Assembly (NCBI GenBank): GCA_000004985.1 | Contig: GG738867.1 | Direction: 5' to 3' (one strand) | DNA: 64,000 bases | From: Naegleria gruberi | Taxonomy: Eukaryota | Shown: piece by piece, positions 3,070-33,219 of the stretch | Numbering within the stretch: position 1 is the stretch's first letter | Layout: every line of letters begins with the position of its first letter | The notes under the pieces: generated by a model | Told to the model about the DNA's origin: nothing | The model's database searches: none | The model's input: only the letters and a program-made list of their open reading frames with translations | Translations under genes and position numbers: made by a program

Positions 3070-6000
3070 CTAAACCCAGTTGGTCTGTCTTCCTAAAGTA
3101 TAAATGTCTTGAAGAGTGGATGTAAAGGTATTTTTTTGTTTGAGTTCTAGGTACTTCTTGTAGAGTCTTAATGCAGTTCTGGCATCCTCTATACTGTCGT
3201 GCGTATCTTGTTGAATATCTTGATTCAATAAATATTTACAAAGGAATCTCAAAGAAATCTTTCTTTGATTTGGTAATCTATATAATTCTACAGTGTCAAT
3301 TATTTGTTCCTTAGGTACGAAAATGTTAATAATCTTAAAATCGTTTGGCAAGCCATGACCGATAAATTTAACCTTCTTCACATCAAGTAAATATCTCAAC
3401 TTGAGGTAGGTATTCTTAATATCAGTAACATGGTGGGTATTAGACTTGTTATTAATATCCAAGTCTCCAGCCTTCAATCCAGAGAATCGTGTCATGTAAT
3501 CTCCAATACGTTTCTCAGCAGTTGAAATGTAATCGTCAATGAGTATCTCCTCATTGAATGTAATAATACTGACTCTACCCAAACCAAAACGTTGTCCATC
3601 ATCAATTTGATCTTCCTTTCTTGTTCTAACAAATTCAGCATCAATAGATACAATATCACCACTAAAGTTTACAATAGTTTTGAATTCGTCATTGTTGAAT
3701 AGGGAGGTATTTTCAGAGATTGGATTTACAGGGTTTACAGTTGGTAGGACGTTCTGAATATCTTGTCTCACGTAGAAAAGTAATGCTGGTGTCTTCCAAG
3801 TTTGACTGTAGATAGTAACATCCTTTTCTTTCTGTGGACTGATGGAAAAATCGTTGAAGAGAACCCAATCATTTGCAATCTTGATGAGAGCTACACAGTG
3901 ACCATCAAAATTCTTTGAGAGAGAAATATTTTCATTTTCTTCCTCACATTCATCTTCTTCATTTTCATTCTCATTTTCAATATTTTCGTAATCTTCCTTG
4001 TTGGCACTTTCAATAATTTTGGTTGTTTGAGTTTTTGGAGCAGTTGACTTTTCTTGGAATGGATGTTTAACTTGGATAATAACAGCAGCCAAATTATAGG
4101 TGATGGACATTGGAGGTTTTCTCTTCTGCTTGGTATAGACCTCGGCAGGTTGAATGTTGTGAATTGACTCTTGTAATTGCTTTTGCTTTTCGTCATTATA
4201 GATAAATGGCTCCCATTGATTCTTATCAGTACCGTGAATAATTGTAAAGTGGAGAGGTATGGTGGTATTTGTCAATTCATTTACAGTATGTTGTGTTCTT
4301 ATCCATCTAATGTCTTCTTCTCTTGCTGGTACAGTGAAGTTGAAAATATTAGGCAATGTCAACAAGCTTCCAGAGCTATTGTTGAGATAATCTTTCAACA
4401 TGACTTCAAAGTTGTCGTATGGATATTGTGGATTGACGCTCTTGAGCTTGTTATCAAAGTTAGTATCAACAGTTTTTTGAGTTTGAACTTCAGAACCAAA
4501 GAGAATGTCTACCATTGTTCTTTGTCTTCTCTTGTTTTGCTTCTTCAAGAGTTGAATGTTACTATTGTTGGTTGCTATAACTTGTTTCTTATTGTTTGGT
4601 GTGCTTCTCAAAAAATTGTAATTTGGTGAAGCAAAGATATATGGATAGGTCATGGAATAACTAAAGGTGGATGCTGATAAAAATTCCTTGTGAAGTTGTT
4701 TGATAATGTATGAGTGGAACTTTTGGATTGTTTCTATACAGGAAATTTTGCTACTCTTTTCATTCAAAAAGGTAAGTTCGAGATTTTGAATAGTTCTATA
4801 CAAGTTGGTAGCTTCTACTGCCTTCTTTTCAGTCTTTTCTGCTTGTTCAATCATGGTGAACAGGAAGCCAAGTTCTGAGGCAATACAGTTAGTCTTCTCA
4901 GATAGATGGTTCATGAGGCACACTCTCAATTGGGGAACAATGTGGTAGAGCACTTGGACGTAGGCATTAAAGATGGATGCTATTTCTAGGCCATTTTCTA
5001 ATCCAACAAATTTAGTGTCGTTATATTTTGAATAGTCAAATTCTTGGAAACGAAGTCTATTGTTGTGTTTAGCAACGTTCAAAGAGAACTCCTTTGGAAT
5101 GACACGCAAAACTCTTGAAAGTTTCTTCTTTGATTTGACATTGTCTTGTGCAAAATCTTTAAATGTTCTTCTTTCTAAATAGCCATCAATGACACGTTTT
5201 AGACCTGGGTTAATACTGGTTCCATAACTAATTTTAGAGTTGGGAGGGTTCTTATATTGAAGATTTTCTAAAATTTGGGGATGTATCTCAAGTGGATGTT
5301 GTCCAACCATGTAGGAATAATTTGGCCAATCAGACAACAGGGATGATCCATCATTTGTAACTTCTTCATCGTCAACGAGTTTGTGTAAATTCAATGGCTT
5401 GAAATCGTCATCGAAAGAAGATTGGTTTTGTGTTGAATAAAAGTGAAGAGTATTGGATGTATCTGCAAATGTCAATACATTTCCTGTTGTGCTAATATCA
5501 AATGATTGAATACCATTAGAATTATCTTGGTCAAATATTTGATAGAGGTTACCATCAGAATTTTGGTATCTATGATCAAATGAAGCTTGTAAATCTTTGA
5601 ATTGGAAATAACCTGTTTGAGATACCATCATTAAGAGTGAGTTGACTCTTGGATGGAATCCCAAAAATGTTGGATCAAGTTGGAAGTGAACTTGACCAAG
5701 CATTCTCAAAGTTCTAAGATCGTATGCTTTTACCATATTGTCAACACTTAGCTCACCATATCTATTGTTAAAACCACAAGTGACCAAGACATTATCTTTG
5801 ATGGCAATATCATTAATGGTACCTGTGTGGACTTCAAAAGAGTGTTCACTCTTGAGTGTTCTTGGATCTCTCAAGGACAATTCTCCCAAAGTACCACCAC
5901 AGCATACATATCTTCCTCCAGTTTTCATTACACAAATACCTTGATTGGTTTCTACTTGGAGACCCATCTTTTGAGCATTTAAATCAAAACTAAAGAGCTT

Positions 6001-6633
6001 GGTGAAATTACCTCCCATGATGAGAGAGTATTGTGATCTACTGCCAGATGATGAATTTCCTGGTGTGTGATCTGAATTGAATGCACATGACAATAATTGT
6101 TCACCAAATAGTTTAGAATCTTCATAGCTGTATCTGTATAGACCACCTCTTGTATGAACAGCAAAACCATTTGAACACAATGAATAAATTCTCTCCTTTT
6201 GAACGATCAATTGTTTGACATCGTAATTGGGTTCAAATGCTCTGAAGGAACAATACTTTTCCATGTTTGGATAATAGTAACCTGTGATTCTACCGTTTGA
6301 TGATCCTGTCCAAATGCACTCATCATAATTGTCTGTTACAACAACACGATTATCGTCTGGAGTGTCTACAGATGGCAGTTGACACCAATCTCCACTATTT
6401 GATTGTCTAGTATTTGAATAAAAATCATCGTTTGAATATCCATAACCATAGTTTACCATTTGACGTTGATAATTCTGTTGTTGTTGATAATAATATGGAG
6501 ATGATTGTTGCTTTCCTAGAGATGGTGATCGTTGTGGAGATCCACCACCTTGGTAATTATTCTTTCTTCCATTGTTTCCATATGAAGAACCTCTATAATT
6601 TGATTGTTGTGGTGAATATTGATTATAATACAT
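3070..6633 (-). CDS. PAN2: PAN2, the PAB-dependent poly(A)-specific ribonuclease catalytic subunit (WD40 region, UCH-like middle domain and C-terminal DEDDh exonuclease); single exon, 1187 aa.
   Basis: The ATG is at 6633 on the minus strand. The C-terminal exonuclease motifs are present: VSIDAEFV (the DxE motif), IGHGLPNDFKIINI and HDSIEDARTALRLYKKYLEL (the H...D motif). The N-terminal half has a WD40-like beta-propeller signature and the middle domain is ubiquitin-hydrolase-like. The size is typical of PAN2. Confidence 0.85.
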   Translation of the reverse strand: MYYNQYSPQQSNYRGSSYGNNGRKNNYQGGGSPQRSPSLGKQQSSPYYYQQQQNYQRQMVNYGYGYSNDDFYSNTRQSNSGDWCQLPSVDTPDDNRVVVTDNYDECIWTGSSNGRITGYYYPNMEKYCSFRAFEPNYDVKQLIVQKERIYSLCSNGFAVHTRGGLYRYSYEDSKLFGEQLLSCAFNSDHTPGNSSSGSRSQYSLIMGGNFTKLFSFDLNAQKMGLQVETNQGICVMKTGGRYVCCGGTLGELSLRDPRTLKSEHSFEVHTGTINDIAIKDNVLVTCGFNNRYGELSVDNMVKAYDLRTLRMLGQVHFQLDPTFLGFHPRVNSLLMMVSQTGYFQFKDLQASFDHRYQNSDGNLYQIFDQDNSNGIQSFDISTTGNVLTFADTSNTLHFYSTQNQSSFDDDFKPLNLHKLVDDEEVTNDGSSLLSDWPNYSYMVGQHPLEIHPQILENLQYKNPPNSKISYGTSINPGLKRVIDGYLERRTFKDFAQDNVKSKKKLSRVLRVIPKEFSLNVAKHNNRLRFQEFDYSKYNDTKFVGLENGLEIASIFNAYVQVLYHIVPQLRVCLMNHLSEKTNCIASELGFLFTMIEQAEKTEKKAVEATNLYRTIQNLELTFLNEKSSKISCIETIQKFHSYIIKQLHKEFLSASTFSYSMTYPYIFASPNYNFLRSTPNNKKQVIATNNSNIQLLKKQNKRRQRTMVDILFGSEVQTQKTVDTNFDNKLKSVNPQYPYDNFEVMLKDYLNNSSGSLLTLPNIFNFTVPAREEDIRWIRTQHTVNELTNTTIPLHFTIIHGTDKNQWEPFIYNDEKQKQLQESIHNIQPAEVYTKQKRKPPMSITYNLAAVIIQVKHPFQEKSTAPKTQTTKIIESANKEDYENIENENENEEDECEEENENISLSKNFDGHCVALIKIANDWVLFNDFSISPQKEKDVTIYSQTWKTPALLFYVRQDIQNVLPTVNPVNPISENTSLFNNDEFKTIVNFSGDIVSIDAEFVRTRKEDQIDDGQRFGLGRVSIITFNEEILIDDYISTAEKRIGDYMTRFSGLKAGDLDINNKSNTHHVTDIKNTYLKLRYLLDVKKVKFIGHGLPNDFKIINIFVPKEQIIDTVELYRLPNQRKISLRFLCKYLLNQDIQQDTHDSIEDARTALRLYKKYLELKQKNTFTSTLQDIYTLGRQTNWV

Positions 6634-7408: not shown

Positions 7409-10103
7409 ATGAGCAAAAAGATAGTGCCCATTTTGAGTCTGTATGAGCCTACTATATCAGATTCCGATCAGGTGTTAGCTTCAGGTCGATCAGCTCGTTA
7501 CCAAGGAAAACTCCAATTACATTCATCTACTGCATCCATCTACAAAACACCTTCATTAGCTCATATGACAACCACGGCTAGTATTAGATCTTCCGTAACT
7601 GATTTAGTCAAGTTCAATAGGCTCTCTCCTCATTTAAAACCTGAAGAGGAAGGGAAAGAGGAAAGAGTTTCCAAGTTTTTCTTATCAATCAAGTTTTTCC
7701 TGATTTTAATTATTTGTGGAATTGTAATTATGAGCTCTGTAGTTTTATCATCGACATGGATTGGAGCTTTATTGCCCTCAATCTGGGGGTTGAGTAATAG
7801 TGTAAAGGACAAACAAGTATTTGAGATAGTGAATAATATCAAAGAAACCATACAGGAGGTGCTGATCGTTTCTTCAGCAACAAAAAGTCAATTAGTTCAT
7901 TCACTGAATTATACAGACAGAGCTTGGATAGAAAAGCACATGTATACCATCTACAAATCTGAGTTGGATTTTCACAAGGATTTAATGATTACAACATACA
8001 TTGGAGATAATTTGGGAACTTGTTATGGAATAATAACATGGGATTCAAAAGTAGCCTTAGTGCACACCAACCTGAATGATCAGCAGTTATATTTTTGTGA
8101 GGATGTTGTAACATATGATTATTGTAAACGCAATTCAAAACCTGATATTACTTTAGGCAAATTTGAAATGTCAGAAATAGTTGAAACTGCAAACCTTTAT
8201 GCAGGATTTCCAGCATTTACACTGAGCTATGCAGATCGTACAATGCCTCAGTATGTGTTTATTAGTTTGATTAATAGTTGGAAAAGAGCTGCTCCTGTGA
8301 ATGGAACCAATTTTGACTATTATTTTGGATATGATATCAGTGTTGCAACCTTAACAACTCATGTTGAAAAGATTTTGGATCGTTCATATGGGGATAGATT
8401 TGCAATTGTAGAAACTGCTACTAATTACGTTATAGCAATGGATCACACAACACAATTTCTTTCTTGGGATTCGGATCGTTATACTCGAATGAGTATAAAT
8501 TCAGTCCAAGACACACAAATGAAATACATCTTCTCACAGATTAGTGGTGACTACTCATCAATGAAGACTGTCAAATGTAATAATCAAGAGTATCTGTCTA
8601 AGGGTGGATATTTCATAGCTCTTCATCGTTACTGTACTGGAAATAACATTGATTGGATGATTGTCTATACAGGTTTGTTTTAATAGATTGAATTGAAAAT
8701 AACACAAATTCTTCAGTTCCTGAATGGAATTTTACTGGAAGTTTTATTGTTGGCATGTTATCAGCTTTAACTGGAACAGTATTGATAATGATTGTAAGCG
8801 CAATTGTTGGAATTATTGTTTCATATAGAATTGTGAGACCATTCAATAACCTTATTGAACTATTTGAGAGTGTTTCTCATATGGATTTAGACAGATTGAC
8901 CGTTTCGAAAACCTACTTTTCAGAAGTTGTTAAACTCCAGAAAAACTTTTTATTTATGGTGAATAGAATTAGAAGTTACAAAAGCTTCATTCCTCCTCAC
9001 TTGATCAGCCAAATAGAGAATGGAGGAATGGAAATTCCCGAAGTTGAAGATCCAAGCACTTCACGGCAGCAAAGTGAGGGATATAATTCGAACAATTCTC
9101 TATCAAGTACTGGAAGTTTACGGAAAACTACTCTTGCGAAGAGTGGAAAGAAGAAGTATATTGCTTCAAAAACAATGTTCTCTCTACACTTGGAAATAAG
9201 GCAGGTTACAATCGTTACCATATTAATGGAAGGACTCAATGAAATGTTGAATGAAGCAAATGCTAAAGAGGTTGTGAATTTGTTGAGTGATGTATTTCTG
9301 GAGATTAGTACTGCCGTAAAACCAAAAGGAGGTCAACTAATTGGAACTGATAATGACATGTTTACCATTTCATTTAATGCTTCGACTGATCTTTCAAGGC
9401 ATGAAGAAAAAGCTCTTTCAGCATCTCAATTATTGAGAGACAAGTTATCGAAGCTAAAATCAATCAAATGGAAAAATTTGGAATATTGGAAGAAACATAG
9501 TTTCTTTTTGGATAAAGTCGTTTTCAGAACAGCTATCCTTTGCCAACAATCTCAAACTGGAAATATTGGTACCTCTGACTCAAAAACTTTTACAATTATT
9601 GGAAGTTTCAAATATAATGCTGATGCTTTGCTTGAGGTTGCCCAACGTTTAGATTTGGATGTGGTTGTCACTGAAAGATTATACTCTCAATTTTCCCATT
9701 TGTACTATATGAGATTTGTAGACAGTGTCGACTTGGCAAACGACTCCATGTACACCTCACCAAAGTTTAAAGAGGATAATATCTATGTTGGGAATGTGTT
9801 TGAAGTTGGTGACTTGTGTGAAACAAAAGCAGATGGTAAGTTTTCTAATTTCATTTTAATTAATTGTTATTTCTGATTTTAGAATGGATGTACGAATTGG
9901 AGGAACAAGGAAAGAAAGAAAAATGGAAAATCTACAATAAGGCTTGTGATTTATTCTTTGAAATGGTACATACAGAAGCTATAGAGCTATTTGAAGAATT
10001 CCTTCATCAACACAACCAAACAGCTTCTACCATTGATAAACCAGCTCATCATCTTATCAACGTATGTAGATCACAAATGGAAGAAGAAGAAAAAAGAGAG
10101 TAA
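7409..10103 (+). CDS. Receptor-type class III adenylate/guanylate cyclase (TM, extracellular sensor domain, TM, HAMP-like linker, cyclase domain); join(7409..8672,8717..9835,9883..10103), about 867 aa.
   Basis: TM1 is FFLSIKFFLILIICGIVIMSSVVL, followed by an extracellular domain of about 300 aa, then TM2 ALTGTVLIMIVSAIVGIIVSY. The cyclase core reads VTIVTILMEGLNEML...KPKGGQLIGTDNDMFTISFNAS. Introns of 44 nt (GTTTGT..TTCAG) and 47 nt (GTAAGT..TTTTAG) restore the frame across the three ORF-track segments. Confidence 0.75.
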
Positions 10104-10554: not shown

Positions 10555-12018
10555 ATGTTTCAAGAAGAACACCACCAACACCAGTTCGGTAAATTGCTTA
10601 TTGGTAGCATGCTGCTATTGATGTGTTGCTGCTGTGTGATGATGGGTGAGGTTAGTGCAACACTTGAGGTTACGAGGGCTGAGAAACAAGCAGTTACATC
10701 TAAGGGAATTTTGCAAATTCAAGCAATTTCTAGACACTGTGATAGATTGCCAGTTTCAGAGTTGAATATTCCTAATGATCCGATTGATTTTGAAAAGATT
10801 TCCAAGTTGAAATTGGGTGAGTTAACTGGTTTGGGACAATATCAATGCAATCAAATGGGTAATAACCTGTACAATAGATACATCAGTGAACAATCATTGA
10901 ATAGAGTTAGAGGTATTTCAACACAATATGTATCAAGTGATTATTCATTTAGATCAACAGATTTAGATAGAACATTGATGAGCATGTGGTCTGTTTCAAT
11001 GGGTTTATTCAAGCAAGGAACTGGAAATACACCAATTGTTAATTTTATGAATGTAAATGATTTGGAAGGTAATTCAATGTTTTCACTTCCAAATGGTACT
11101 CAAGCAGTTCCTGTTCACACAGTTCCACAAGAGTCGGATTCAGTCTTGATTGGATATCAATTTTGTAACAGCGTAATGAAAAGAATGCATGCGGTGAATA
11201 CTCAATCAGCTATTGAATATTTCAATAAGAATCGTCAATTAATTAATGAATTGTTCAAGGTTACTGGATGGGATGCCTCTAAGGGTGATTTATCTTTGGC
11301 AACACTTGTTGATGTTTTAACAGTTCAAAAATCTCACAATTTACTTTCTCTCCAATGGGTTCATGAACATTGGGATGAGATTTGTGCATTGAGAGATGGA
11401 TATTTGAAATTAATTTATACCTATCCAGTATTTGGAAGAGAAGGAAGTAGTGATCTTGTTACATTGATGAATTACAATGTTGCTCAGACCAAAGTCAAGT
11501 ATTATCACTACTCGGCTCATGACACTACTCTGCAAGCACTTGCTGCCAGTTTGAAATTAACTGCTGATTATCCTTATTTGGCCAATCAACCAGGTTATGG
11601 ATCATTCATGGTTATGGAATTACATGAAATGAGTGATGGATCTAAGGCTGTCAGATTTGTTCATGCCAAGCAATTTAATGATACTTCATTCACTCCTCTC
11701 ACAATGACCTCATTGGGTTGCAAGAGTGAATATTGTCCATTAGAACAATTTTCTGAGCTAGTTAGTGAATATTCAATGGTCCCTTCTGATTCAACATGGT
11801 GTATGGAATGTAAAAATTCAAATAGAGATTTGTGTGCTAGCGAATTTATTCAAACCTACCAAGAATCCAATAAGGCATTGATGATTACCACTCCAATTCT
11901 TGCCTTTACTAATCTTTGCACCATTTTTATCATGATTGCAGTAATTGCTTGTTGCATTAGAAAGAATAGAAAACTAGCAAACCAACAACAAGATGCCATG
12001 TATCATGGAATGAAATAA
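10555..12018 (+). CDS. Membrane-anchored histidine acid phosphatase (branch 2 of the histidine phosphatase superfamily) with a signal peptide and a C-terminal TM; single exon, 487 aa.
   Basis: The N-terminal signal-like segment is LLIGSMLLLMCCCCVMMGEVSA. The catalytic motif is SRHCDRLP, an RHGxRxP-type motif with Cys in place of Gly. The downstream proton-donor motif is YSAHDTTL. The C-terminal TM is ILAFTNLCTIFIMIAVIACCI. Confidence 0.8.
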   Translation: MFQEEHHQHQFGKLLIGSMLLLMCCCCVMMGEVSATLEVTRAEKQAVTSKGILQIQAISRHCDRLPVSELNIPNDPIDFEKISKLKLGELTGLGQYQCNQMGNNLYNRYISEQSLNRVRGISTQYVSSDYSFRSTDLDRTLMSMWSVSMGLFKQGTGNTPIVNFMNVNDLEGNSMFSLPNGTQAVPVHTVPQESDSVLIGYQFCNSVMKRMHAVNTQSAIEYFNKNRQLINELFKVTGWDASKGDLSLATLVDVLTVQKSHNLLSLQWVHEHWDEICALRDGYLKLIYTYPVFGREGSSDLVTLMNYNVAQTKVKYYHYSAHDTTLQALAASLKLTADYPYLANQPGYGSFMVMELHEMSDGSKAVRFVHAKQFNDTSFTPLTMTSLGCKSEYCPLEQFSELVSEYSMVPSDSTWCMECKNSNRDLCASEFIQTYQESNKALMITTPILAFTNLCTIFIMIAVIACCIRKNRKLANQQQDAMYHGMK

Positions 12019-14601: not shown

Positions 14602-17600
14602 TTATAAAATTTCCTTTCTTTGAGCATTGGGTGGTTCTCTAATTCTGGCAATTTTGATGAATTGCTCGACAGTCATGGTGCTTCCATAGAGTGCAGAGGC
14701 TTCTCGTTGTTGCTTTTGGATCATCATTTGGATTTGGAAAACTGGTTGGATGGCAAAGTCAACTCGACACTTTTCCAATCTGTTCATGGCTGTGGCAAGT
14801 TCTTCAAATTTGGCCCATCGAATCATGTTATTGTGATGTTTCACATAGGTTTCAGTTGAGTAAAAGTAGCTCAATTCTTCCTGTTGTAAAAAATCCATAA
14901 AATGATTCTGAATATACATGAGCTCTCTCAAGTGAGCTTCAACAATTGGAAGACAAGGAGTTCTGCATCCATCAAATAGGTCATTATAATTCTGATATCG
15001 AGAATCTTCAACAACTACTACATCGATATGATAATTGGATGGATCAAATCCGAAAAAGATGTCATATTTGGATTTGAAATGAATGAGGGATGGAGTTGGC
15101 ATGTGAGAGAAGGAAGAATCTTTTGATTTGGCAGTATGGTGATCCTCATAAAAGACTACGAGTGGATTAGTTTCCACTTCTTCAGCTTCATTGTCATCCT
15201 CTGAGGCAATTTGTTGCTGTTTGATTGAGTTGTTGACACTTGTTGGAATTACTCTGACAGTGCTTATTGATTCCTTTCTTCTGACAATATTTGGAGATGG
15301 AAGGGAACTTTCTACATTGACAGAAGTGGAACTATTGATAGAGAATGAGTCGAATGAGCCTGATTTTCTCATTTCTTGAACAATGGTATGGCTGTGTTTT
15401 GGGTGACCGAGATTTCTCACAATACTCTTGAAACTAAAGTTGGCATTTCCTTTGAATTTCTTTTTGGATTCATCGACAGTATGGTAGAGATTTTCCTTAA
15501 TGGCTGGATGTGAAAAGATGGTAGCAAGTGCATGGGCAGCACCATAGTTTTGCATATTGTACAATTCAATAATGATTTGCTTAATCTTGATGATCAATTC
15601 AACACGATCCTTGATGTGTGGTTTATCCAAGACATCACACATAAGCCAATTAGCTCTATCGTGGATCAACTCGAGATATTGACACAATTTAGGACAATTC
15701 ATCTTGAAATATTGAGATCTAAAATTGGAAATGGCCATATTGAAATCCAAGTAGCCATACGTCTTTTTACAATTCTTTACAGAGAGAATGGAATAATTCA
15801 AAAATTCAACACTCGAAATTTCACTATAAAAGTAATAATCCATAATAGTGAATTGTCTAGATAATTCTACAGGTGACACATCTGACCATTTGAGAGAGGA
15901 TGAAAAGACATTTGGAGGAATGTTTGGTCTTGGACATTTTGACGAGTCCATGTAAATGGTTTTGTAAAAGTGATAATATTCGTCAGTGTTGGTATTATCA
16001 TCATCAAGATTTTCATCGGTATCAATTGAAGTTTCCAAGGCATTCCTCTTTCCTCTTCTATTGTTGCCATTAGTGAAGATTACATCAGAATCTGATTCAG
16101 ATAAATGGGACGAGAAGAAATTAGACAACTTATCAGAGAATGACTCTGTGTCGGTCTTTTCAATTTCCAGCGAAGTGAATTGGGTATATTCCTTAATGCT
16201 GACCTTCTTTCTCAGATTCTTCTTACCTAAAATTGTTGCCATTTTCTTTTTCAATGTTGTATTGATAGTTTCACATAATTCGAGTGCATTTCCAACTTTT
16301 GATAGAGTCACAACCGAGTCTGGAATCTTGCTTGACTCAACCTTTTTCAATAAGTGTAGGGATTTTATCTGTTCGATAATCTTTGAGAGAAATTCGAACA
16401 TGTTTTGATTCCATTGATAGTAATATTCCGATAGCCAATAGCTCAACACATCGAGACAACAAATAATAATTTCAATACACTCTACAGTTTCCAAAAGTTT
16501 TGACATTGTGTTGGTAATTCTATCAACGTGTTCACCGACTGATTCTTCAAGAATATTATCATTAGTGACATCAGTAGAGGAAAAGACTCCCTTACTATCT
16601 AATCCGAAATTTTTCATGATCAAGATGAGTGGAAGACTCAACCTTTCGAATATTTTCAATAGGAGACCATCTGGAGACAGAATGTGAACATATCCCCTGA
16701 AGAATGCCTTTCTAAAAGTGTCCTTTGTTTCGATTCTTGTCTCAGGACGTACACAATTCTCTCCAAATACTTCGAAATAATCATTAGCAACAGTATCGTA
16801 TTCTCTGAAACGAATCTTACTCATAGTATCGAATAGTCTGTGCTCAGTGACTGTAACCATTTCAATGAGTTTGTTCAAAGTCAATCCAAATAAGACGTTG
16901 TGATTCTTATCGTCGTCTTTGAATGTATAAAAATTGGAGAATGAGTCAAATAATTCATGATGTTCTCCAGTGCTTTGATTCTTCCTCTCTATGAATAGTT
17001 TTCGTTGTTTGATATCATTTGAGGTCAGAGTTTCGAATGCAATCTTGGGAATGTTTGAGAACTCCTCCCAATAGGAAGGTTTCAGAGAGAGCTTGTTAGA
17101 TTGAGAACGAAGGAGGAATTTTTGGAAGAAATTTTGAGTTACTGTTTTCGAAGGAATGAAAGTGTTTCTTCTGATGGTACTTTCTCTCACTCTCGATTTG
17201 GCAGGCGAGAGAGGAGAATTTTTGCTCGATAAAGTGCTAGCTCTTCCATGAATGGAACGAAGCTTTTCCAATGTTTCGGCAGCTGTTGGTCTTCCAATAG
17301 GATTAGGATCCAATAATTTACAAATCAATTCGGCCAATTCAGTTCCATTAGTTACACATTCCATAACTTGTTGTCTGAGTTGGGCATGGAAATTCACATT
17401 CTGATACACCTCAATGTAAAATTGTCTATTCAAGACTTGGAACAAGAGTTCATAAAATACACAACCAAGAGACCACATATCTGTCGAATATCCATATGGT
17501 TCCTGGGACATCATTTCTGGTGAGCAATATTTAACAGTACCCAGAAGAGTTTGTTCAGAGCTAAAGCTTTGTGGAACAAGAAGCTGGTCAGTGTGAATAC

Positions 17601-18426
17601 TGCCATTATTCCTATTGAAAAAATTACCTCTTTCCTTTTCCAATTCTACTGCTTCTTCACTGGTGGAGAATTTCATCTTTTTCATAGTTTCAAAATCTCC
17701 AATCTTGATCGACTTTTCATCATTGGTAACAAAAATGTTACTCGGCTTTAAATCCAAATGTACAAATCCCTCGGAATGCAAATACTTGACACCCTCTGCA
17801 ATTTGAATCATGTAACTCAATAATTGATCTCTCGAAATGACTTCAAATATTGAATTGACATGACAATTATTCGTACTTTCGTATTGTTTAGTTTTCTTCT
17901 TCAAATAGGTATCCAAATCACCATGTTTAAAGTATTCCATTTGAAAGCAAATCCAATAACTTTGTTTCTTATCAACAAGCTGACTCAAATTCTCAACTTG
18001 CATCTTGATAGATGATGATGAATCGGAAGAAATTGAACCTGCTTCAGCAATTTCATTCTCATCCTCATCGTCATCTTCACTTCCAACAAGTAATTTGGAT
18101 TTTTCACTAGCTTCATTCTTTGTATTGGCAACAAACTGATTACCATTCACATTCCCAGTACCAGTACCAACACTATTTCCTCCTCCACCTCCTCCCAAAT
18201 TAGAATTACTATTCGAATTATTTGTATTCATAATATTTGCAAACTTTTCAAAAAAGATATCTTCAATTTCTACAAGATTTGGCGACTTTAAATGTCTCAA
18301 TTTCCATCCCTCAGATATAAATCTGTTCAACTCATCCTCCGAGTAGCATTGTGTCTTTTTGAGAACTTTTGTAATGTGCTCTCGGGTGACAATGACGAGA
18401 ACCATTTGTTGATTATTCTTCATCAT
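14602..18426 (-). CDS. Dual-domain signalling protein with an N-terminal protein-kinase-like domain (atypical motifs) and a C-terminal RasGEF (CDC25-homology) domain; single exon, 1274 aa.
   Basis: Kinase-like motifs are HLDLKPSNIFV, IKIGDFE (DFG replaced by DFE) and GTVKYCSPEM, and I see no clear GxGxxG loop. The RasGEF motifs are ELSRQFTIMDYYFYSEI, ANWLMCDVL and MQNYGAAHALATIFSHPAI. The MMKNNQ start at 18426 is ATG ATG; an additional upstream exon is possible. Confidence 0.75.
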   Translation of the reverse strand: MMKNNQQMVLVIVTREHITKVLKKTQCYSEDELNRFISEGWKLRHLKSPNLVEIEDIFFEKFANIMNTNNSNSNSNLGGGGGGNSVGTGTGNVNGNQFVANTKNEASEKSKLLVGSEDDDEDENEIAEAGSISSDSSSSIKMQVENLSQLVDKKQSYWICFQMEYFKHGDLDTYLKKKTKQYESTNNCHVNSIFEVISRDQLLSYMIQIAEGVKYLHSEGFVHLDLKPSNIFVTNDEKSIKIGDFETMKKMKFSTSEEAVELEKERGNFFNRNNGSIHTDQLLVPQSFSSEQTLLGTVKYCSPEMMSQEPYGYSTDMWSLGCVFYELLFQVLNRQFYIEVYQNVNFHAQLRQQVMECVTNGTELAELICKLLDPNPIGRPTAAETLEKLRSIHGRASTLSSKNSPLSPAKSRVRESTIRRNTFIPSKTVTQNFFQKFLLRSQSNKLSLKPSYWEEFSNIPKIAFETLTSNDIKQRKLFIERKNQSTGEHHELFDSFSNFYTFKDDDKNHNVLFGLTLNKLIEMVTVTEHRLFDTMSKIRFREYDTVANDYFEVFGENCVRPETRIETKDTFRKAFFRGYVHILSPDGLLLKIFERLSLPLILIMKNFGLDSKGVFSSTDVTNDNILEESVGEHVDRITNTMSKLLETVECIEIIICCLDVLSYWLSEYYYQWNQNMFEFLSKIIEQIKSLHLLKKVESSKIPDSVVTLSKVGNALELCETINTTLKKKMATILGKKNLRKKVSIKEYTQFTSLEIEKTDTESFSDKLSNFFSSHLSESDSDVIFTNGNNRRGKRNALETSIDTDENLDDDNTNTDEYYHFYKTIYMDSSKCPRPNIPPNVFSSSLKWSDVSPVELSRQFTIMDYYFYSEISSVEFLNYSILSVKNCKKTYGYLDFNMAISNFRSQYFKMNCPKLCQYLELIHDRANWLMCDVLDKPHIKDRVELIIKIKQIIIELYNMQNYGAAHALATIFSHPAIKENLYHTVDESKKKFKGNANFSFKSIVRNLGHPKHSHTIVQEMRKSGSFDSFSINSSTSVNVESSLPSPNIVRRKESISTVRVIPTSVNNSIKQQQIASEDDNEAEEVETNPLVVFYEDHHTAKSKDSSFSHMPTPSLIHFKSKYDIFFGFDPSNYHIDVVVVEDSRYQNYNDLFDGCRTPCLPIVEAHLRELMYIQNHFMDFLQQEELSYFYSTETYVKHHNNMIRWAKFEELATAMNRLEKCRVDFAIQPVFQIQMMIQKQQREASALYGSTMTVEQFIKIARIREPPNAQRKEIL

Positions 18427-18922
18427 GGATGAATCTGCTATGGAGAGTAAATCAGCAGCAGGAATGTTATTTGTGGAGGCATCAGAAAGAGCGAGAGAAT
18501 TATGTGGTGAAGATGATGAGATGATGATTATTGATGGGATTCGAATATTGATGACTTCCGAAACTAGAGGAAGAAATTCGTTGTGAATTGGAAACGGATA
18601 GACATTTAACCACTTGATATTGTTGTTGCGAAGATGATGACTTCATCCTCGATGCTCTGGTGAACTAGTTTAAAATGTGTTGAGATGAAGAGGCTAAATA
18701 TTATTCGAAACGAAGCAGATTTTTTTGGACTGTAATATGACAAGTTAATGAGGTGTCAGATAGGTGCATCCAATTTTGCCTTTTACAATTTCTTCCTGTA
18801 CTGTAATCAAACTCCTATTCAAAGGTTACACAATCAAATTGGCGCCATTTTAAAATCTTTTTGAAAAATAAGAAAAATAGAAAAAAGGCACAAAACTTTG
18901 GAAAAACAAATTACAAAAAAAA

Positions 18923-20216: not shown

Positions 20217-20394
20217 ATTAATCTACAGAATTGTTGTAAAATGAATATTGCGGTTTACTCCAACTCTTGATGAACAGTTCTGTTGATCCATGATGGGGTA
20301 ATAGACAACGATCCGTGTCCAGTACAGAAAAGACTGTTGATGAACGATACATTCCATTACATTCCACCATTACCAAATTTTCCACAAAAACGAA

Positions 20395-23300
20395 ATGTCA
20401 TCATCACACTCATTCACTCTAATCTTTCTAACTATTGCTGTTATATTGCTAACTTTAAATGGGCACTATTCGATATTTGCCTTTGATCTTACTTTTCCAA
20501 CATTTCCTGATGCCAAGTTTCGATCGGATACTTCCAATGCCACTGAAGTGTTTATTAAAGACTCAATTGACCAAATTGCTAAACAACTCGAGCCACCATC
20601 TTTAGCTCTTCCATATTATATTGATGGACCAATAGCACTATTCGCAGAAGTGGTTGGAGTTCTCTCAAATAGTGACACGTACAGTAAACCTTACGTAAAA
20701 CCACCAGATGTTATTTCGAATAGTACACACGAAATGTTGAACATAATGATGACCAAAGTATTGAACCGAGTAGAAACTGCCCTGTTAGAAACCAAATATG
20801 ATAAGCTTGTTATTGCTCTCGTTATTGAACTCGATAAGGATCTTGAAGTTGCTGATTGTAACATTTCGCCAATCATTCCAATAGAAATATCAAAAAAACT
20901 TGCTGACATTACTGTCTATTTGACAATTAATGGTCATTCCTTGAATATGAAATGTGGTGGAGATTATTTATTCTCTAGTGGTCCAGATTCCAATTGGAAC
21001 ATTGTTATTAACAGAGCAGTACTTTCGAATATATATTTTACTGGAAATTATGTTTTCAAAAAGGTTGAATTTTTGGCTCAATGTGAAATATCAGCTTCTA
21101 GTTTTTTAGTATTCATCAAATCCAAGACTCTTCACACACTATATATTCCCTACATTAGTGCTATTAAGGAATTGATATTTATTGATAGTGTTATGGATAA
21201 ATTAAGAGTGGATTTCATTCAAGAGTTTCATCTATTTTTGGCAAGTAATAGTTTGATTGGTTTAGGAATGTTCGATTGTGAAATTAAGAATGTTTGGCTG
21301 TATAATTCAAAGGTTTATCTAGAAGACAGGTTTATTATTGAAAGTTCTGATCAATTCATATTATTTAACTCAACTATTCAATCAAAGAACTCTCCAATAC
21401 AGATGAGAATAGAATATTCGAAACTTATTTTCATAGATGGCTTTAAAAATTCTCATACTCCAATCATGCTCTCACTTTCACATTCCATTTCTGTTGTAAT
21501 GAAAAACATATTACTCAATTCTGCCACTTTACAACAAGAATCACTTCTTAATTTTCGAGGAATCAAATCATTATCCATCTATTCCTCCATATTTAAAGAA
21601 AACAATGCAAATAGAATTATAGACATTAGTGATTCAAGTGAGGTTGACATTAAAGAGATTTTATTTGAGGAGAATTCTGCTACTGATAGTCCAATTTGCA
21701 TTTCTCCTGGTGGAGCTAAGAGCTCACATACCCGTATTGTGGACAGTGTTTTTAATAGGAATAAGGCGGGAAATAAGGCAGTGATTGCATTGTCTCATCC
21801 AATTATATTGGCCCGATCTGTTTTTAATGAAAATGAGGGAGTTAGTGGAGGTTTGTATATTTTGATTTAAATTGGTGGTTGACCATGTTTAGGAGCTATT
21901 TATGTTGAAGCTGGATTTACTATTTCTGGGTCCACTTTCAAGAAGAACAAGGCCAAGAATGGAGGAGCTCTGTATATTCACTCAGAAATTGGTGCTTCAG
22001 GTACCATGCAAAATGTTGATTTTGTGGAAAATCAAGTAACAGATCTAGATGATGTTAAAGTGTGTGGTCAAGATAGTTGTGATGGAAGTGGAGGTGCTAT
22101 TTATTATAACCAAAACGACCTTTTCTCAATAATGTCATGCAATTTTGTCAAGAATTTGGCTGTCAGAGGAGGTGCCATCTTTGCAAATTTTGAAAATGAT
22201 ACCATTTTTATTACTTATTCGAAATTCAAAGAAAATTATGCAAGTTATGGAGGAGGTGCAATCTATTCTAATTCTGCCTCATATCTTCCATTAATTTATG
22301 AAGAATTGGGAAGTGGAAATAAGGCTAAAGTATTTGGAGATTATGTTGCTTCTTCCATTGCTAGTGTGAATTGGAGAGTTCAAATTGAGGATCAAAAAGA
22401 TAGATTATATGAAGGAAATCAAACTATTTCAGTATATCCAGGTCAATTATTTACCATTATTCCCTATTTTACTGACCTTTACAATAATTCTTTTGTAATG
22501 AATAAGGAAGTTTCAAAAATCAAAGTTTCAGGATCAAATTTCACAATTAGTCAATCATCAGAAAAGGAATTTACTAATCTATTCATTGCATCAACCGGTC
22601 CACTTCCAAATTCTGAACATTTACACATGACAACACTTACCATTTCATTTTACAAAACCGAAACCAATCTAAAAGTCCAACTTCTCCCCTGTCCAAAGAA
22701 TTTCTATTTGAAAGATAATCAATTTAGTAAGAATCTTGTCTGTGTCTATGAAGAATCCAGAGAATATCTGATTGCTGTAGCTGTTTCAGTAACCATTGTG
22801 GTCATTACCCTTCTCCTATGCTCAATAGGTGTCATTTCCATGCTCTGCTACAAGATATCCCACAAGGTAAAGTATTGGATGCGTAGAGATAAGGCAGAAA
22901 AGGAAATTGAAAAGCGATTACTCGAATCTGATCTATGTCCAGAAGAGGAATTGCTCAGTGTTCGAAATTTGAATTTTGTGATTAGTATTGATCAGATTAC
23001 ATTGGAAAGAAAGATTGGAGAAGGTGGTTCTGGAATTGTTTATTTGGGAAAATGGCATCACCATCCAGTTGCTGTCAAATGTCTTAAACTTCAAGATGCT
23101 TATCAAAATTCAGATGAAATTGAAAAGGAAGCAGCTCTATTATGCAAACTTAGACATCCCAATATTGTATTATTCTTTGGTGTTTCATTAACTCCACAGA
23201 AACAATATCTCATTGTGGAATATTTGGAGAAGGGAAGTTTGGAGAAACATATTTCATTAATGAAACGAAACCATCAATTCGAATTTGTTGACAAGTTGAA

Positions 23301-24086
23301 GCTTTTGATTGATATCACATGTGGAATGGCATATCTTCATTCCCTTAAAGTTATTCATAGGTATGTGAAATATTTAAACTATTTATTCCTAATATTCGAA
23401 ACAGAGATTTGAAACCTGGAAATATTCTATTAGATTCTGTTGGAGTAGCCAAAGTTTGTGATTTTGGCATTTCTAGAATTGCTGGAAACACTGCAGCAAA
23501 CTCCACAACCATCTGTGCTGGAACTTTAACCTACATGGCTCCTGAACTATTGCAATCAGATGCCGAAAAGAATCGAATTACAACCTCAGTCGATGTTTAC
23601 AGTTTCTCAATTATCATGTATGAAATATTCTTTGAGGAAGCTCCCTATGCAAAATCTTTGAAAATCAAACAATTTAAACAGGAAAGAAATGGAAAAATTC
23701 ATAATTCTCATTCAGAAGATGGTTTTTATAATAATCATCATCTTGTAACTCCATTTTCAGTTATTTCCAAAGTGATTAAGGGAGTGAGACCTGAAATTCC
23801 ATTCGAAAATCCACAAGATATTGCTGAATGGCTTCAATTATACATGTTTGAATATGGATTACTTTCCGATATTTGTAAATCAAAGGCAATTTCTATTGTA
23901 AATGATTATGTGGAATTGATGAAAGCTTGTTGGAGTGCAGAGCCAGATCAGAGACCAAACTTTGAAACTGTTCTCAATTGTCTTTCATTGTTGAGACAGC
24001 AATTTATGGACTTGACAGATTATCATAAACAGATATCTGGTTCTCTATCCTCTACATCAACAACTACTACAACTGCCTATGACTAA
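20395..24086 (+). CDS. Receptor-like protein kinase with a signal peptide, a Pmp-type (GGAI) parallel beta-helix repeat ectodomain, one TM and a TKL-like kinase domain; join(20395..21850,21893..23360,23405..24086), about 1200 aa.
   Basis: The signal peptide is MSSSHSFTLIFLTIAVILLTLNG. The ectodomain has repeated GGAIY/GGALY motifs separated by FxxN spacers. The TM is IAVAVSVTIVVITLLLCSIGVISMLCY. The kinase motifs are GEGGSGIVYLG, VAVK, HRDLKPGN, CDFGISR and YMAPE. A 42-nt in-frame intron (GTTTGT..GTTTAG) contains two stops, and a 44-nt intron (GTATGT..AAACAG) splits HR|DLKPGN. Confidence 0.8.
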
Positions 24087-25520: not shown

Positions 25521-25975
25521 TTTTTTATAGTAGAAGCTCGTTATTCTCTCACTCAACACCTGTATTAACGTTTGATGGAATGGTTATCATATAGTACAGA
25601 GATAAAACATGTCAAATTGACAGTTGGCTCTTTCCAAATATGGAATAATCTCACTTTTCATGTTGGTATGATATTTAGTAATAGACACCAAAGAAATACA
25701 ACTACTATATAGGAATGATGGAAGTGAGATATTGAAAAAAGCAAAGAACCACTTGTACTGTAAAATACTGAATTGTAAACTTGGTGAGACTTGATGTCAT
25801 CAAATGCGTACTACACAAGATTAATGCTTACAGTAAGTTTCTAGTTCATGAAAAGATTCTGATGAAATTGTTGGTCCACAGTGATGGAAGGTTTCTTCAA
25901 AGTTTAGAATAGTTTGGTTTCTGACCACAAAATATTCGAAATTCTCGAAAGTTTCAACTTGATTGCAATAGTTTC

Positions 25976-27296: not shown

Positions 27297-27708
27297 TTTT
27301 TCCACTTATCCTAAAACCATTCGCTTAAATTGCTACCATTCAAAGTTCTGAAAATTTCACTTTTCACATGCCAATTAGGATTGTCATCTTCGTTAATAGA
27401 AACTCCACAATGGCGTTTGAAAAGAATGAAGTTTAGGTGGAACAATGAATTATGTCTCAAAAATGCAATCCAGCCAATTTTTAATACCATATCTTTTTTC
27501 CAACTGTTTCTTCTCAACAATTTCAATGAGAAAGAATGAGAACAAATCATGAGAATAGCTTCTCTATACTCTTATCTTCCATTTAATATCTTCAATTTTC
27601 CAATATTTGACCTCAATCTCCAACCATATGGCAAATAATCATTCCATAATCAAAATTCTCAGAAAATCATCTTTTGGCTGATTTTTGGTAATTTTTTATT
27701 AAAAAAAA

Positions 27709-32933: not shown

Positions 32934-33219
32934 GATGATTTTTTTTGATTAGTGATGAATAGCTGTTGACATCTCTTGCATTGCAAGTTGAAACAAAGAA
33001 CAAGAGAAGAACCTTGTTCATGATGAACATGAGAACTAATTTCAACCAACTCATCTATGTTCTGAACAAATTAAATATTATTTAATATATTATTAATAAT
33101 TAAATAGCTATGTTATATATATTAAATTAAAACATAAGCCACTTTCCTTTCCTCATCAAAATACCGAATAGGGTTGGGAATTCTAACAACGGCCCATTCT
33201 AAATAATTTGCAAAACAAA

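What the first reader, a model, noticed from the sequence alone, without database searches (positions are those of the whole stretch)
7409..10103. Receptor-type class III cyclase with bacterial-like sensor-TM-HAMP topology and a possibly substituted metal-binding residue
The architecture is TM, a sensor domain of about 300 aa, TM, a HAMP-like linker, then a class III cyclase. That matches bacterial and protist receptor cyclases. In the first catalytic block the canonical F-A-D-I-V-G-F-T reads I-L-M-E-G-L-N-E, so the first metal-binding Asp appears to be replaced. The second block still has IGTDNDM. This could be a pseudo-cyclase or a regulatory subunit, or it could have altered metal or substrate handling.
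Basis: partly seen in the sequence, partly recalled or inferred. Interest (0 to 1): 0.5.

Follow-up and report, generated by a model that had tools for sequence, protein, structure and literature searches.

The report
Naegleria sensor receptor with dead cyclase
This Naegleria gruberi gene encodes a membrane receptor with a bacterial-type ligand sensor outside the cell and, inside it, a nucleotide cyclase domain that has lost most residues needed to make cAMP or cGMP; it belongs to a large family of such predicted "pseudo-cyclase" receptors in Naegleria and related amoeboflagellates that I could not find described.

Summary
Window 7409-10103 (+) is a three-exon gene (introns 8673-8716 and 9836-9882) encoding 867 aa. 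It is Naegleria gruberi NAEGRDRAFT_67478 (XP_002677353.1, "predicted protein"). The architecture is cytosolic tail, TM, dCache sensor, TM, HAMP-like segment, disordered linker, class III cyclase homology domain (CHD), then one TPR-like motif.

The CHD is real. A family profile hits CyaB at E 7e-20, and the AlphaFold model superposes on CyaB at TM 0.8. The catalytic set is largely missing:
- Metal Asp1 is Leu591.
- The base-specifying Lys is Gly631.
- The transition-state Arg is Ala725 (or Leu726).
- The catalytic Asn is Tyr721, or is kept as Asn722 if a one-residue gap is allowed.
- Only Asp2 (Asp635) and Thr714 clearly remain.

Among 118 family representatives (Naegleria spp., Percolomonas, metagenomes), none has Asp1 or the Lys. 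The CHD is nevertheless as conserved as the sensor.

Best reading: a ligand-sensing receptor whose inactive CHD acts as a dimerisation or scaffold module with a TPR output. Activity itself was not tested. This is a new variant of a known kind, of moderate interest.

The parts
7409..10103 (+). Whole gene: 3 exons (7409-8672, 8717-9835, 9883-10103), 867 codons plus TAA. It is N. gruberi NAEGRDRAFT_67478 / XP_002677353.1 / UniProt D2VF26.
   Evidence: ORFs, splice sites, translation. (junctions conserved). (857/858 aligned residues identical to the annotated N. gruberi protein, which differs only by a 27-nt extra 'intron').
8673..8716 (+). Intron 1 (44 nt, GT..AG, phase 1), inside the end of the sensor domain.
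   Evidence: Splicing restores ..IVYT-V-PEWNF.., which aligns with all homologues.
9836..9882 (+). Intron 2 (47 nt, GTAAGT..TTTTAG, phase 1), inside the conserved D-E-W motif.
   Evidence: Splicing restores ..KAD-E-WMYEL.., invariant D794, E795 and W796.
7409..7672 (+). N-terminal cytosolic tail, aa 1-88. Poorly conserved and predicted disordered.
   Evidence: pLDDT <50. 28% identity to the N. fowleri orthologue, against 47-57% for the folded domains.
7673..7774 (+). Transmembrane helix 1, aa ~89-122.
   Evidence: Kyte-Doolittle mean up to 2.8 over 19 residues. Continuous helix 94-165 in the model.
7775..8727 (+). Extracellular double-Cache (dCache) sensor domain, aa 123-425 (includes intron 1). 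Conserved Y274 and D309; invariant Cys230, 239, 390 and 409.
   Evidence: Foldseek: PctD 7prq E 4e-7 to 5e-8, also TlpQ, TlpA, TlpC dCache, Mlp24, PctA and CqsR. Family profile hits dCache sensor chains 7k5n, 3c8c, 6mni and 5ave at about 1e-5. pLDDT 82-98.
8728..8832 (+). Transmembrane helix 2, aa ~426-460.
   Evidence: Hydropathy. Helix 424-475 in the model.
8833..8982 (+). HAMP-like segment, aa 461-510 (R-I-V-R-P463-F..L.. / connector / S-E491-V..L...F..M).
   Evidence: P463 and E491 are nearly invariant and invariant, respectively, in the family. Helix-loop-helix in the model. The best PDB hit of the segment profile is the NarQ HAMP (residues 174-228), but at E 0.25 only.
8983..9018 (+). 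Conserved Y-[KR]-x-F-I-P-x-H-[IL]-L helix, aa 511-522. It resembles the motif that precedes the catalytic domain in class III cyclases.
   Evidence: F512, P514, H516 and L518 are invariant or >=90% in 50 sequences. The resemblance to the cyclase transducer element is from memory and was not tested.
9019..9174 (+). Low-complexity Ser/Thr/Asn/Lys-rich linker, aa 523-574. Predicted disordered.
   Evidence: pLDDT 33-39. 22% identity to the orthologue. Not conserved in A2.
9175..9822 (+). Class III cyclase homology domain with a degenerate active site, aa 575-790.
   Evidence: Family profile: CyaB 3r5g E 7e-20, Cya2 2.5e-18, CyaC 3e-14. Foldseek: CyaB TM 0.80-0.81, rmsd 3.2-3.6 A. pLDDT mostly >90.
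9223..9225 (+). Codon TTA = Leu591, at the position of the first metal-binding Asp.
   Evidence: CyaB, CyaC, Cya2 and two bacterial PF00211 proteins all place Asp in this column of the family HMM. 0 of 118 family representatives have Asp here.
9343..9345 (+). Codon GGA = Gly631, at the position of the base-specifying Lys (Glu in guanylyl cyclases).
   Evidence: No Lys in this column in 118 representatives.
9355..9357 (+). Codon GAC = Asp635, the retained equivalent of the second metal-binding Asp, at the beta2-beta3 hairpin.
   Evidence: Hairpin E628-633/E636-641. Asp in only 38 of 118 representatives.
9592..9630 (+). T714-I-I-G-S-F-K-Y721-N722-A-D-A725-L726. Thr714 is kept. The catalytic Asn aligns with Tyr721 (or Asn722 with a 1-residue gap). 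The transition-state Arg aligns with Ala725 (or Leu726).
   Evidence: Column 726 is L/M/I/V in 111 of 118 representatives, and column 725 is Arg in 11 of 118.
9823..10100 (+). C-terminal D-E-W-M-Y-E-L motif plus one TPR-like repeat and a capping helix, aa 791-867 (includes intron 2).
   Evidence: D794 and W796 are >=90% conserved. Profile hits TPR proteins SRP72 at 9e-8 and YbgF at 2e-5. Weak Pfam TPR hits in orthologues. Helices 799-806, 810-820, 824-838 and 847-866, pLDDT >85.

Best explanation
The gene encodes a type of receptor built like a bacterial chemoreceptor or receptor cyclase.

**Proposed mechanism.**
- An extracellular double-Cache domain binds a small ligand.
- The signal crosses the membrane through TM2 into a HAMP-like four-helix module.
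- The intracellular cyclase homology domain is catalytically inactive, i.e. a pseudo-cyclase.
- The CHD is kept as a dimerisation or scaffolding module.
- Together with the conserved C-terminal DEW/TPR motif, it relays the signal through protein-protein contacts rather than by making cAMP or cGMP.

**Shown.**
- The gene model.
- The dCache and CHD folds.
- Loss of Asp1, the Lys and the Arg in this protein.
- Absence of Asp1 and the Lys in all 118 family representatives; the Arg columns are not conserved.
- Comparable sequence constraint on the CHD and the sensor.
- A single TPR-like repeat at the C-terminus.

**Inferred.**
- Lack of catalysis, from established class III cyclase mechanism: two Asp hold the two metal ions, Lys/Asp or Lys/Thr read the base, and Asn and Arg stabilise the transition state.
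- Dimerisation.
- A protein-binding output.
- The ligand class. The distal Cache pocket keeps the Tyr and Asp that bind an amino group in amino-acid and amine sensors, but lacks the Arg/Trp carboxylate clamp. An amine-like ligand is therefore a lead only.
For: **Homology and fold of the CHD.**
- Profile hits: CyaB E 7e-20, Cya2 2.5e-18.
- Foldseek: CyaB TM 0.80-0.81.

**Catalytic residues.**
- In a control alignment to the same HMM, CyaB, CyaC, Cya2, P0168 and P0171 show D/K(E)/D/T/N/R.
- This protein shows L591/G631/D635/T714/Y721/A725 in the same columns.

**Family census of 118 representatives.**
- 0 have Asp at column 591.
- 0 have Lys at column 631.
- Asp635 is kept in 38.
- Column 726 is hydrophobic in 111.
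- No conserved acidic column lies at the end of beta1 or in the beta2-beta3 hairpin.

**Constraint.** Identity to the N. fowleri orthologue is CHD 47%, dCache 48%, HAMP 54% and TPR 57%, against 22-28% for the linker and tail. Strongly conserved non-catalytic CHD residues are N642, H650, G703, N704, G706 and R754.

**Other domains.**
- dCache fold.
- TPR-like tail.
- A disordered ~50-aa linker lies between the HAMP and the CHD. This argues against the rigid coiled-coil coupling used by active receptor cyclases.

**Distribution.** N. gruberi, N. fowleri, N. lovaniensis, Percolomonas cosmopolitus and metagenomes.
Against: - No enzymatic measurement exists. Inactivity is inferred from sequence.
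- Asp635, Thr714 and possibly Asn722 are retained in this orthologue group. Many members carry Asp/Glu/Gln two residues after the lost Asp (E593 here), so an unconventional site cannot be formally excluded.
- No partner protein, ligand or dimer has been shown.
- The HAMP assignment is statistically weak (E 0.25).
- The model is a monomer, so the dimer interface was not examined.
Confidence: 0.6

Rival explanations
1. The inactive CHD works as a regulatory partner. It heterodimerises with the CHD of one of the many catalytically competent Naegleria cyclases. Because each class III active site is built from both subunits, it would silence or tune that enzyme in response to the dCache ligand, acting as a ligand-controlled dominant-negative or allosteric subunit.
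For: - Class III sites are shared between two subunits (established mechanism). This protein lacks residues from both half-sites: Asp1 on one side, Lys and Arg on the other. A heterodimer with it would therefore have no complete site.
- Interface-region residues G703-N704-x-G706 are 92-98% conserved.
- Naegleria encodes at least 81 cyclases (PMC9928731).
Against: - No partner has been identified.
- The family has its own full receptor architecture and more than 100 divergent representatives. That fits autonomous receptors better than accessory subunits.
- Heterodimer modelling was not possible with the tools.
Confidence: 0.2
2. It is still an active nucleotide cyclase, or another nucleotidyl transferase, that uses a non-canonical metal site (for example Glu593 and/or Asp633 together with Asp635) and an unusual substrate pocket.
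For: - Asp635 and Thr714 are retained, and Asn722 under one register.
- Column 593 is Glu/Asp/Gln in 45 of 118 representatives, and column 633 is Glu/Asp in 61 of 118.
- The fold is intact with high model confidence.
Against: - None of these acidic positions is conserved. Column 593 is also Pro 19, Ser 12 and Thr 8. Column 635 is Asp in only 38 of 118.
- No column with >=60% acidic residues lies in the catalytic cleft.
- The base-reading Lys is absent in all 118 representatives. The Arg column is Arg in 11 of 118 in the ungapped register (column 725) and in none in the gapped one (column 726).
- In characterised class III cyclases, mutation of the first Asp abolishes activity (general knowledge, not tested here).
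Confidence: 0.1
3. It is a decaying gene: a former cyclase on its way to becoming a pseudogene, with no selected function.
For: - Loss of catalytic residues.
- No Pfam match for the single sequence.
Against: - The 867-codon reading frame is intact, with canonical splice sites.
- One-to-one orthologues exist in N. fowleri and N. lovaniensis, with the same motifs.
- Conservation is domain-specific: 47-57% in folded domains against 22-28% in linkers.
- A second N. gruberi-like sequence differs at only 6 of 373 residues.
- The same degenerate pattern is kept across Heterolobosea.
Confidence: 0.03

Closest known systems
Bacterial class IIIb/c adenylyl and guanylyl cyclase catalytic domains (P. aeruginosa CyaB 3r5g, Spirulina CyaC 1wc1, Synechocystis Cya2 2w01)
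   Same: - Same fold: TM 0.73-0.81.
- Significant profile homology: E 7e-20 to 3e-14.
- Shared G-N-x-G hairpin, Thr at the second specificity position, and the second metal Asp.
   Different: - First metal Asp, base-specifying Lys/Glu and transition-state Arg are all replaced: L591, G631 and A725/L726.
- It carries a C-terminal DEW/TPR tail.
- It is embedded in a eukaryotic receptor.
Cache/HAMP-containing membrane nucleotidyl cyclases of Discoba and bacteria. This covers the 'pan-eukaryotic' NCIII subfamily with TM + HAMP + Cache1 described for Euglena, kinetoplastids and N. gruberi (PMC6366073), the single Naegleria Cache-containing 'bacterial-type adenylate cyclase' (PMC4822843), and M. tuberculosis Rv2435c.
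   Same: Identical overall layout: TM, Cache sensor, TM, HAMP, one CHD.
   Different: - Those proteins are treated as cyclases and are detected by Pfam PF00211 and Cache models.
- This protein matches no Pfam model.
- It lacks the catalytic residues, has a ~50-aa disordered insert between the HAMP and the CHD, and ends in a TPR motif.
- Whether the published subfamilies include this family was not checked.
dCache_1 ligand-binding domains of bacterial chemoreceptors and kinases (PctD, TlpQ, PctA, Mlp24/Mlp37, TlpC, CqsR)
   Same: - Same two-module fold between two TM helices.
- Conserved Tyr (Y274) and Asp (D309) at the positions that contact the ligand amino group in Mlp37.
   Different: - The Arg-x-Trp-Tyr carboxylate-binding motif is absent.
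- Four invariant cysteines suggest disulfides.
- The output is a pseudo-cyclase rather than an MCP signalling domain, a kinase or a GGDEF domain.
Pseudoenzyme domains inside receptors, for example the kinase-homology (pseudokinase) domain of animal membrane guanylyl cyclases
   Same: A catalytic fold retained for regulation or dimerisation after loss of catalytic residues (analogy from general knowledge).
   Different: - Different fold and position.
- Here the pseudo-domain is the cyclase itself, and no active output domain remains in the polypeptide.

Membership tests
Class III nucleotidyl cyclase (catalytically competent, Pfam PF00211 Guanylate_cyc) | Cyclase homology domain fold (beta-alpha-alpha-beta-beta-alpha-beta core) | tested here: met
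   Model pLDDT >90 over aa 578-790. Foldseek: CyaB TM 0.80-0.81, rmsd 3.2-3.6 A; CyaC 0.73-0.79; Cya2 0.77.
Class III nucleotidyl cyclase (catalytically competent, Pfam PF00211 Guanylate_cyc) | Sequence match to the family model above the curated threshold | tested here: not met
   No Pfam hit at E<=1 for this protein. Best among 6 orthologues and paralogues is E 0.53. Distant family members do pass (P0072 40.7 bits, P0050 28.3 bits against a cut-off of 21.9). The family profile hits solved cyclases at E 7e-20, so homology is established but the protein itself is below threshold.
Class III nucleotidyl cyclase (catalytically competent, Pfam PF00211 Guanylate_cyc) | Two metal-binding Asp (end of beta1; beta2-beta3 hairpin) | tested here: not met
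   First Asp is Leu591; second is Asp635. 0 of 118 family representatives have the first Asp.
Class III nucleotidyl cyclase (catalytically competent, Pfam PF00211 Guanylate_cyc) | Base-specifying pair (Lys + Asp/Thr for ATP; Glu + Cys/Gly for GTP) | tested here: not met
   Gly631 replaces Lys/Glu. Thr714 is retained. No Lys in column 631 in 118 representatives.
Class III nucleotidyl cyclase (catalytically competent, Pfam PF00211 Guanylate_cyc) | Transition-state Asn and Arg (N-x-x-x-R) | tested here: not met
   Tyr721/Ala725 in the ungapped register, or Asn722/Leu726 with a one-residue gap. Arg is absent in both.
Class III nucleotidyl cyclase (catalytically competent, Pfam PF00211 Guanylate_cyc) | cAMP or cGMP synthesis | not testable with these tools
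   Requires a biochemical assay.
dCache_1 extracellular sensor domain | Long N-terminal helix followed by two PAS-like alpha/beta modules, located between two TM helices | tested here: met
   Model H94-165, then two beta-sheet modules, pLDDT 82-98. Foldseek: PctD 5e-8, also TlpQ, TlpA, TlpC dCache, Mlp24, PctA and CqsR. Profile hits 7k5n, 3c8c, 6mni and 5ave at 5e-6 to 1e-5.
dCache_1 extracellular sensor domain | Match to the Pfam dCache/PDC models above threshold | tested here: not met
   No hit for this protein. Only sub-threshold MCP-like_PDC_1 hits in distant members (20.4 and 18.6 bits against 27).
dCache_1 amino-acid sensor subclass | Arg-x-Trp-Tyr carboxylate clamp plus Tyr and Asp amino-group ligands in the distal module | tested here: not met
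   Alignment to Mlp37/Mlp24: the D-P-R-V-R-P-W-Y stretch aligns with non-conserved residues. Only the Tyr (Y274) and Asp (D309) equivalents are kept.
HAMP domain | About 50 aa directly after TM2: amphipathic helix with conserved Pro, connector, second helix starting with conserved Glu | tested here: inconclusive
   Pro463 and Glu491 are conserved in the family. Helix-loop-helix in the model at moderate confidence, pLDDT 73-79. The best PDB hit of the segment profile is exactly the NarQ HAMP (174-228), but E 0.25. No Pfam HAMP hit.
Tetratricopeptide repeat | 34-residue helix-turn-helix with the W/Y..A..Y..A..F..L..P pattern | tested here: met
   C-terminal profile hits TPRs of SRP72 (9e-8), YbgF (2e-5), BepA and consensus TPR proteins. 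Weak Pfam TPR_1/TPR_2 hits in 3 of 6 close homologues. Only one repeat plus a capping helix.
Cyclase transducer element (helix preceding class IIIa/b catalytic domains) | Conserved ~19-aa helix with an L-P-x-x-V/I motif immediately N-terminal to the CHD | not tested
   Y-[KR]-x-F-I-P-x-H-[IL]-L is highly conserved and resembles the motif from memory. Here it is separated from the CHD by a ~50-aa disordered linker. No reference alignment was available for a test.

The most novel reading that the evidence does not exclude
Heterolobosean amoeboflagellates possess a large, previously unrecognised class of eukaryotic chemoreceptors. In this class, a bacterial-type dCache sensor (possibly for amines) signals not through a second messenger but through a conserved pseudo-cyclase/TPR module that recruits cytosolic partners. 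This would be a non-enzymatic output for a cyclase fold. It is expanded into several paralogues per Naegleria genome and into ankyrin-repeat-bearing variants in uncultured relatives.
Probability: 0.3. Interest if true: 0.65.

Novelty: new variant of a known kind. Interest (0 to 1): 0.42.

Why it matters
Naegleria genomes are noted for very large cyclase repertoires that are assumed to sense the environment. If a sizeable, conserved subset cannot make cyclic nucleotides, three things follow:
- Counts of "cyclases" overstate cAMP/cGMP signalling capacity.
- A distinct receptor class with an unknown output exists in this lineage, which includes the pathogen N. fowleri (orthologue FDP41_013114).
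- The cyclase fold gains a documented receptor-embedded pseudoenzyme family that can be tested directly by activity assays, back-mutation and partner pull-downs.

The work also gives a corrected gene model for NAEGRDRAFT_67478.

Tried and rejected
- **Single-sequence searches.** Pfam gave no hit and phmmer against the PDB gave E 0.9. Both were too insensitive, so I moved to profiles.
- **Word-indexed homologue searches with alignments**. They added no new family members, only P0018 and four bacterial proteins. The exhaustive representative search supplied the family.
- **Exact look-ups of window ORFs**. They found nothing because the annotated models differ. Identity came instead through the cluster of P0018.
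- **First AlphaFold run with 6 sequences**. It gave a poor second half of the CHD (pLDDT <50). It was replaced by the 50-sequence run.
- **afdb50 fold search**. Unavailable, so taxonomic spread could not be read from AlphaFold DB.
- **One-residue shift restoring the metal Asp.** Rejected: no Asp exists in aa 583-612.
- **Complementary half-site subunit of the mammalian C1/C2 type.** Rejected: this protein lacks residues from both half-sites.
- **Amino-acid-sensing dCache.** Rejected: the carboxylate clamp is absent.
- **Other family members in the window.** None found.
- **Literature searches** for pseudo-cyclase or inactive CHD families in Naegleria. No description of this family was found.
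Full report
**1. What is at the coordinates**

ORF listing and the raw sequence show three in-frame pieces on the + strand. They are separated by two short GT..AG introns (8673-8716, 44 nt; 9836-9882, 47 nt). Splicing gives a 2604-nt CDS and an 867-aa protein.

Both junctions recreate peptide strings that are conserved in all homologues..IVYTVPEW.. and ..KADEWMYEL... The window is AT-rich (33% G+C) and carries ordinary eukaryotic neighbours, including PAN2, a histidine acid phosphatase, a kinase-RasGEF and an RdRP.

The gene is Naegleria gruberi NAEGRDRAFT_67478 (XP_002677353.1, EFC44609.1, UniProt D2VF26, "predicted protein"). The annotated 858-aa product is identical to my model except that it removes 27 nt (8251-8277), replacing QYVFISLINS with H. 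That stretch is conserved in the orthologues (L287, N289 and S290 are invariant). The annotated mini-intron is therefore probably spurious.

**2. Architecture**

- Hydropathy gives two transmembrane segments, aa ~89-122 and ~426-460.
- An AlphaFold model built with a 50-sequence family alignment has mean pLDDT 81. Only aa 1-92 and 523-573 are disordered.
- The 300-aa region between the TM helices is a double-Cache fold. Foldseek finds the ligand-binding domains of PctD, TlpQ, TlpA, TlpC, Mlp24, PctA and CqsR. The family profile hits dCache sensor chains 7k5n, 3c8c, 6mni and 5ave at about 1e-5.
- Four invariant cysteines and several N-x-T sequons fit an extracellular location.
- After TM2 comes a HAMP-like helix-connector-helix with the hallmark Pro463 and Glu491, both conserved in the family. 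The best PDB match of this segment is exactly the NarQ HAMP domain, but at E 0.25. I therefore call it HAMP-like.
- A highly conserved Y-[KR]-x-F-I-P-x-H-[IL]-L helix follows.
- Next is a ~50-aa non-conserved, disordered Ser/Thr/Asn/Lys-rich linker.
- The cyclase homology domain occupies aa 575-790.
- The protein ends in a conserved D-E-W-M-Y-E-L motif and one TPR-like repeat with a capping helix. TPR hits include SRP72 at 9e-8 and YbgF at 2e-5.

**3. Is the cyclase domain real, and is the active site degenerate?**

The single sequence is too diverged for Pfam or phmmer (CyaC E 0.9). Profiles settle the question:
- Six close homologues give CyaB E 4e-6.
- Fifty family members give CyaB 7e-20, Cya2 2.5e-18, CyaC 3e-14 and the photoactivated cyclases 1e-13 to 1e-11.
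- The modelled domain superposes on CyaB with TM 0.80-0.81 at 3.2-3.6 A.

All alignments put Gly594 on the invariant Gly of F-x-D-I-x-G-F-T. The first metal Asp therefore corresponds to Leu591. No Asp exists between aa 583 and 612, so a shift cannot rescue the site.

As a positive control I aligned fragments of CyaB, CyaC and Cya2, and two bacterial PF00211 proteins, to the same family HMM.

| Catalytic role | Genuine cyclases | This protein |
|---|---|---|
| Metal Asp1 | D | Leu591 |
| Base-specifying residue | K (E in Cya2) | Gly631 |
| Metal Asp2 | D | Asp635 |
| Second specificity residue | T in 4 of 6 controls (A in P0171, G in Cya2) | Thr714 |
| Transition-state Asn | N | Tyr721 |
| Transition-state Arg | R | Ala725 |

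With the one-residue gap used, the last two become Asn722 and Leu726. Arg is absent either way. The secondary structure agrees: Leu591 lies at the C-terminal end of beta1, and Asp635 lies at the beta2-beta3 hairpin.

**4. The family**

An exhaustive profile search of 1.84 billion representatives found 4898 hits at E<=1e-3, 839 at <=1e-10 and 126 at <=1e-30.

Named members come from:
- N. gruberi: at least four paralogues (this gene, P0003, P0011, P0022).
- N. fowleri.
- N. lovaniensis.
- The heterolobosean Percolomonas cosmopolitus.

Others come from MMETSP and metagenomes, including a subgroup with N-terminal ankyrin repeats.

In 118 representatives covering the CHD:
- None has Asp at column 591 (K, R, Y, H and L instead).
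- None has Lys at column 631.
- Asp635 is kept in only 38.
- Column 726 is hydrophobic in 111.
- No column with >=60% acidic residues lies in the catalytic cleft.

Other CHD positions are 87-98% conserved: N642, H650, G703, N704, G706 and R754. Identity to the N. fowleri orthologue is 47% in the CHD, against 48% in the sensor, 54% in the HAMP, 57% in the TPR tail, and 22-28% in the linker and N-terminal tail. The degenerate domain is therefore under constraint and is not decaying.

**5. Mechanism**

The established chemistry of class III cyclases requires:
- both Asp residues for the two metal ions;
- Lys plus Asp or Thr (or Glu plus Cys) for the base;
- Asn and Arg for the transition state.

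Each site is built across a dimer. This protein lacks residues from both half-sites. A homodimer should be inactive, and a heterodimer with an active cyclase would have no complete site.

I therefore favour a ligand-sensing receptor whose CHD is a non-catalytic dimerisation or scaffold module, with the DEW/TPR tail as a protein-binding output (confidence 0.6). The inactivity part is stronger than the output part. The disordered linker between the HAMP and the CHD also differs from the rigid helical coupling of active receptor cyclases.

Rivals:
- a ligand-controlled inhibitory partner of active cyclases (0.2);
- residual activity through an unconventional metal site (0.1), which is disfavoured because no substitute acidic residues are conserved;
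- a decaying gene (0.03).

For the ligand, alignment to Mlp37/Mlp24 shows that the Tyr and Asp contacting the ligand amino group are kept (Y274, D309). The Arg-x-Trp-Tyr carboxylate clamp is absent. This hints at a non-amino-acid ligand, possibly an amine, but it is only a lead.

**6. Comparison with what is known**

The TM-Cache-TM-HAMP-cyclase layout is known in bacteria. It has also been noted in Discoba, including N. gruberi (PMC6366073; PMC4822843).

What is not described in the literature I could search is a conserved, expanded heterolobosean family in which the cyclase domain has uniformly lost its catalytic residues and gained a TPR tail. UniProt labels some orthologues automatically as "Guanylate cyclase domain-containing protein". 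On the evidence here, that label overstates their likely function.

**7. Verdict**

- Novelty: a new variant of a known kind.
- Interest is moderate (0.42). The finding is not startling for pseudoenzyme biology. It is a clean, testable family relevant to how Naegleria, including N. fowleri, senses its environment.

Noticed in passing
window 8251-8277: The public N. gruberi model (XP_002677353.1) splices out 27 nt (GT..AG), replacing QYVFISLINS with H. These residues are conserved in N. fowleri and N. lovaniensis orthologues. The real introns of the gene are 44 and 47 nt, so this mini-intron is probably an annotation artefact.
   Followed up: partly
P0018 (Logan assembly) vs window 8755-9873: A 373-aa ORF from an independent public read assembly differs from the window at 6 of 373 residues. 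None is a key CHD position. This indicates a second N. gruberi-like strain or allele carrying the same gene.
   Followed up: partly
P0055, P0059, P0063, P0068 (metagenome proteins, about 1160-1270 aa): A distant subgroup of the same family carries about 400 aa of N-terminal ankyrin repeats ahead of TM1, with the same dCache-HAMP-degenerate CHD-TPR body. The source organisms are unknown.
   Followed up: partly
window 24190-25583 (-) and 25979-27305 (-): Two neighbouring gene copies have nearly identical peptide strings (..SNRK[NT]SWRTA[VA]TMRAISKK[AT]FKRVRIFTQITI.. and ..FMFLN[FY]IMLFVILFFVQMVL). This looks like a tandem duplication of a membrane-protein gene.
   Followed up: no
window 33187-35958 (+): A long ORF gives a very strong match to eukaryotic RNA-dependent RNA polymerase (Pfam RdRP, E 8e-157). 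This is an RNAi-type RdRP gene.
   Followed up: no
window 20344-24083 (+): Consecutive ORFs carry a Chlamydia-PMP-type repeat and a protein kinase domain. This is probably one intron-split receptor-kinase-like gene.
   Followed up: no
window 57456-59891 (-) and 14605-18642 (-): Two multidomain signalling genes: four DUF4116 repeats plus a protein kinase, and a protein kinase plus a RasGEF domain.
   Followed up: no
window 3070-6633 (-) and 10555-12018 (+): The immediate neighbours of the target gene are a PAN2 deadenylase homologue (PAN2_N + UCH_1 + RNase_T) and a histidine acid phosphatase (His_Phos_2) with a hydrophobic C-terminal stretch in its translation that could be a membrane anchor. 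There is no functional link to the receptor.
   Followed up: no
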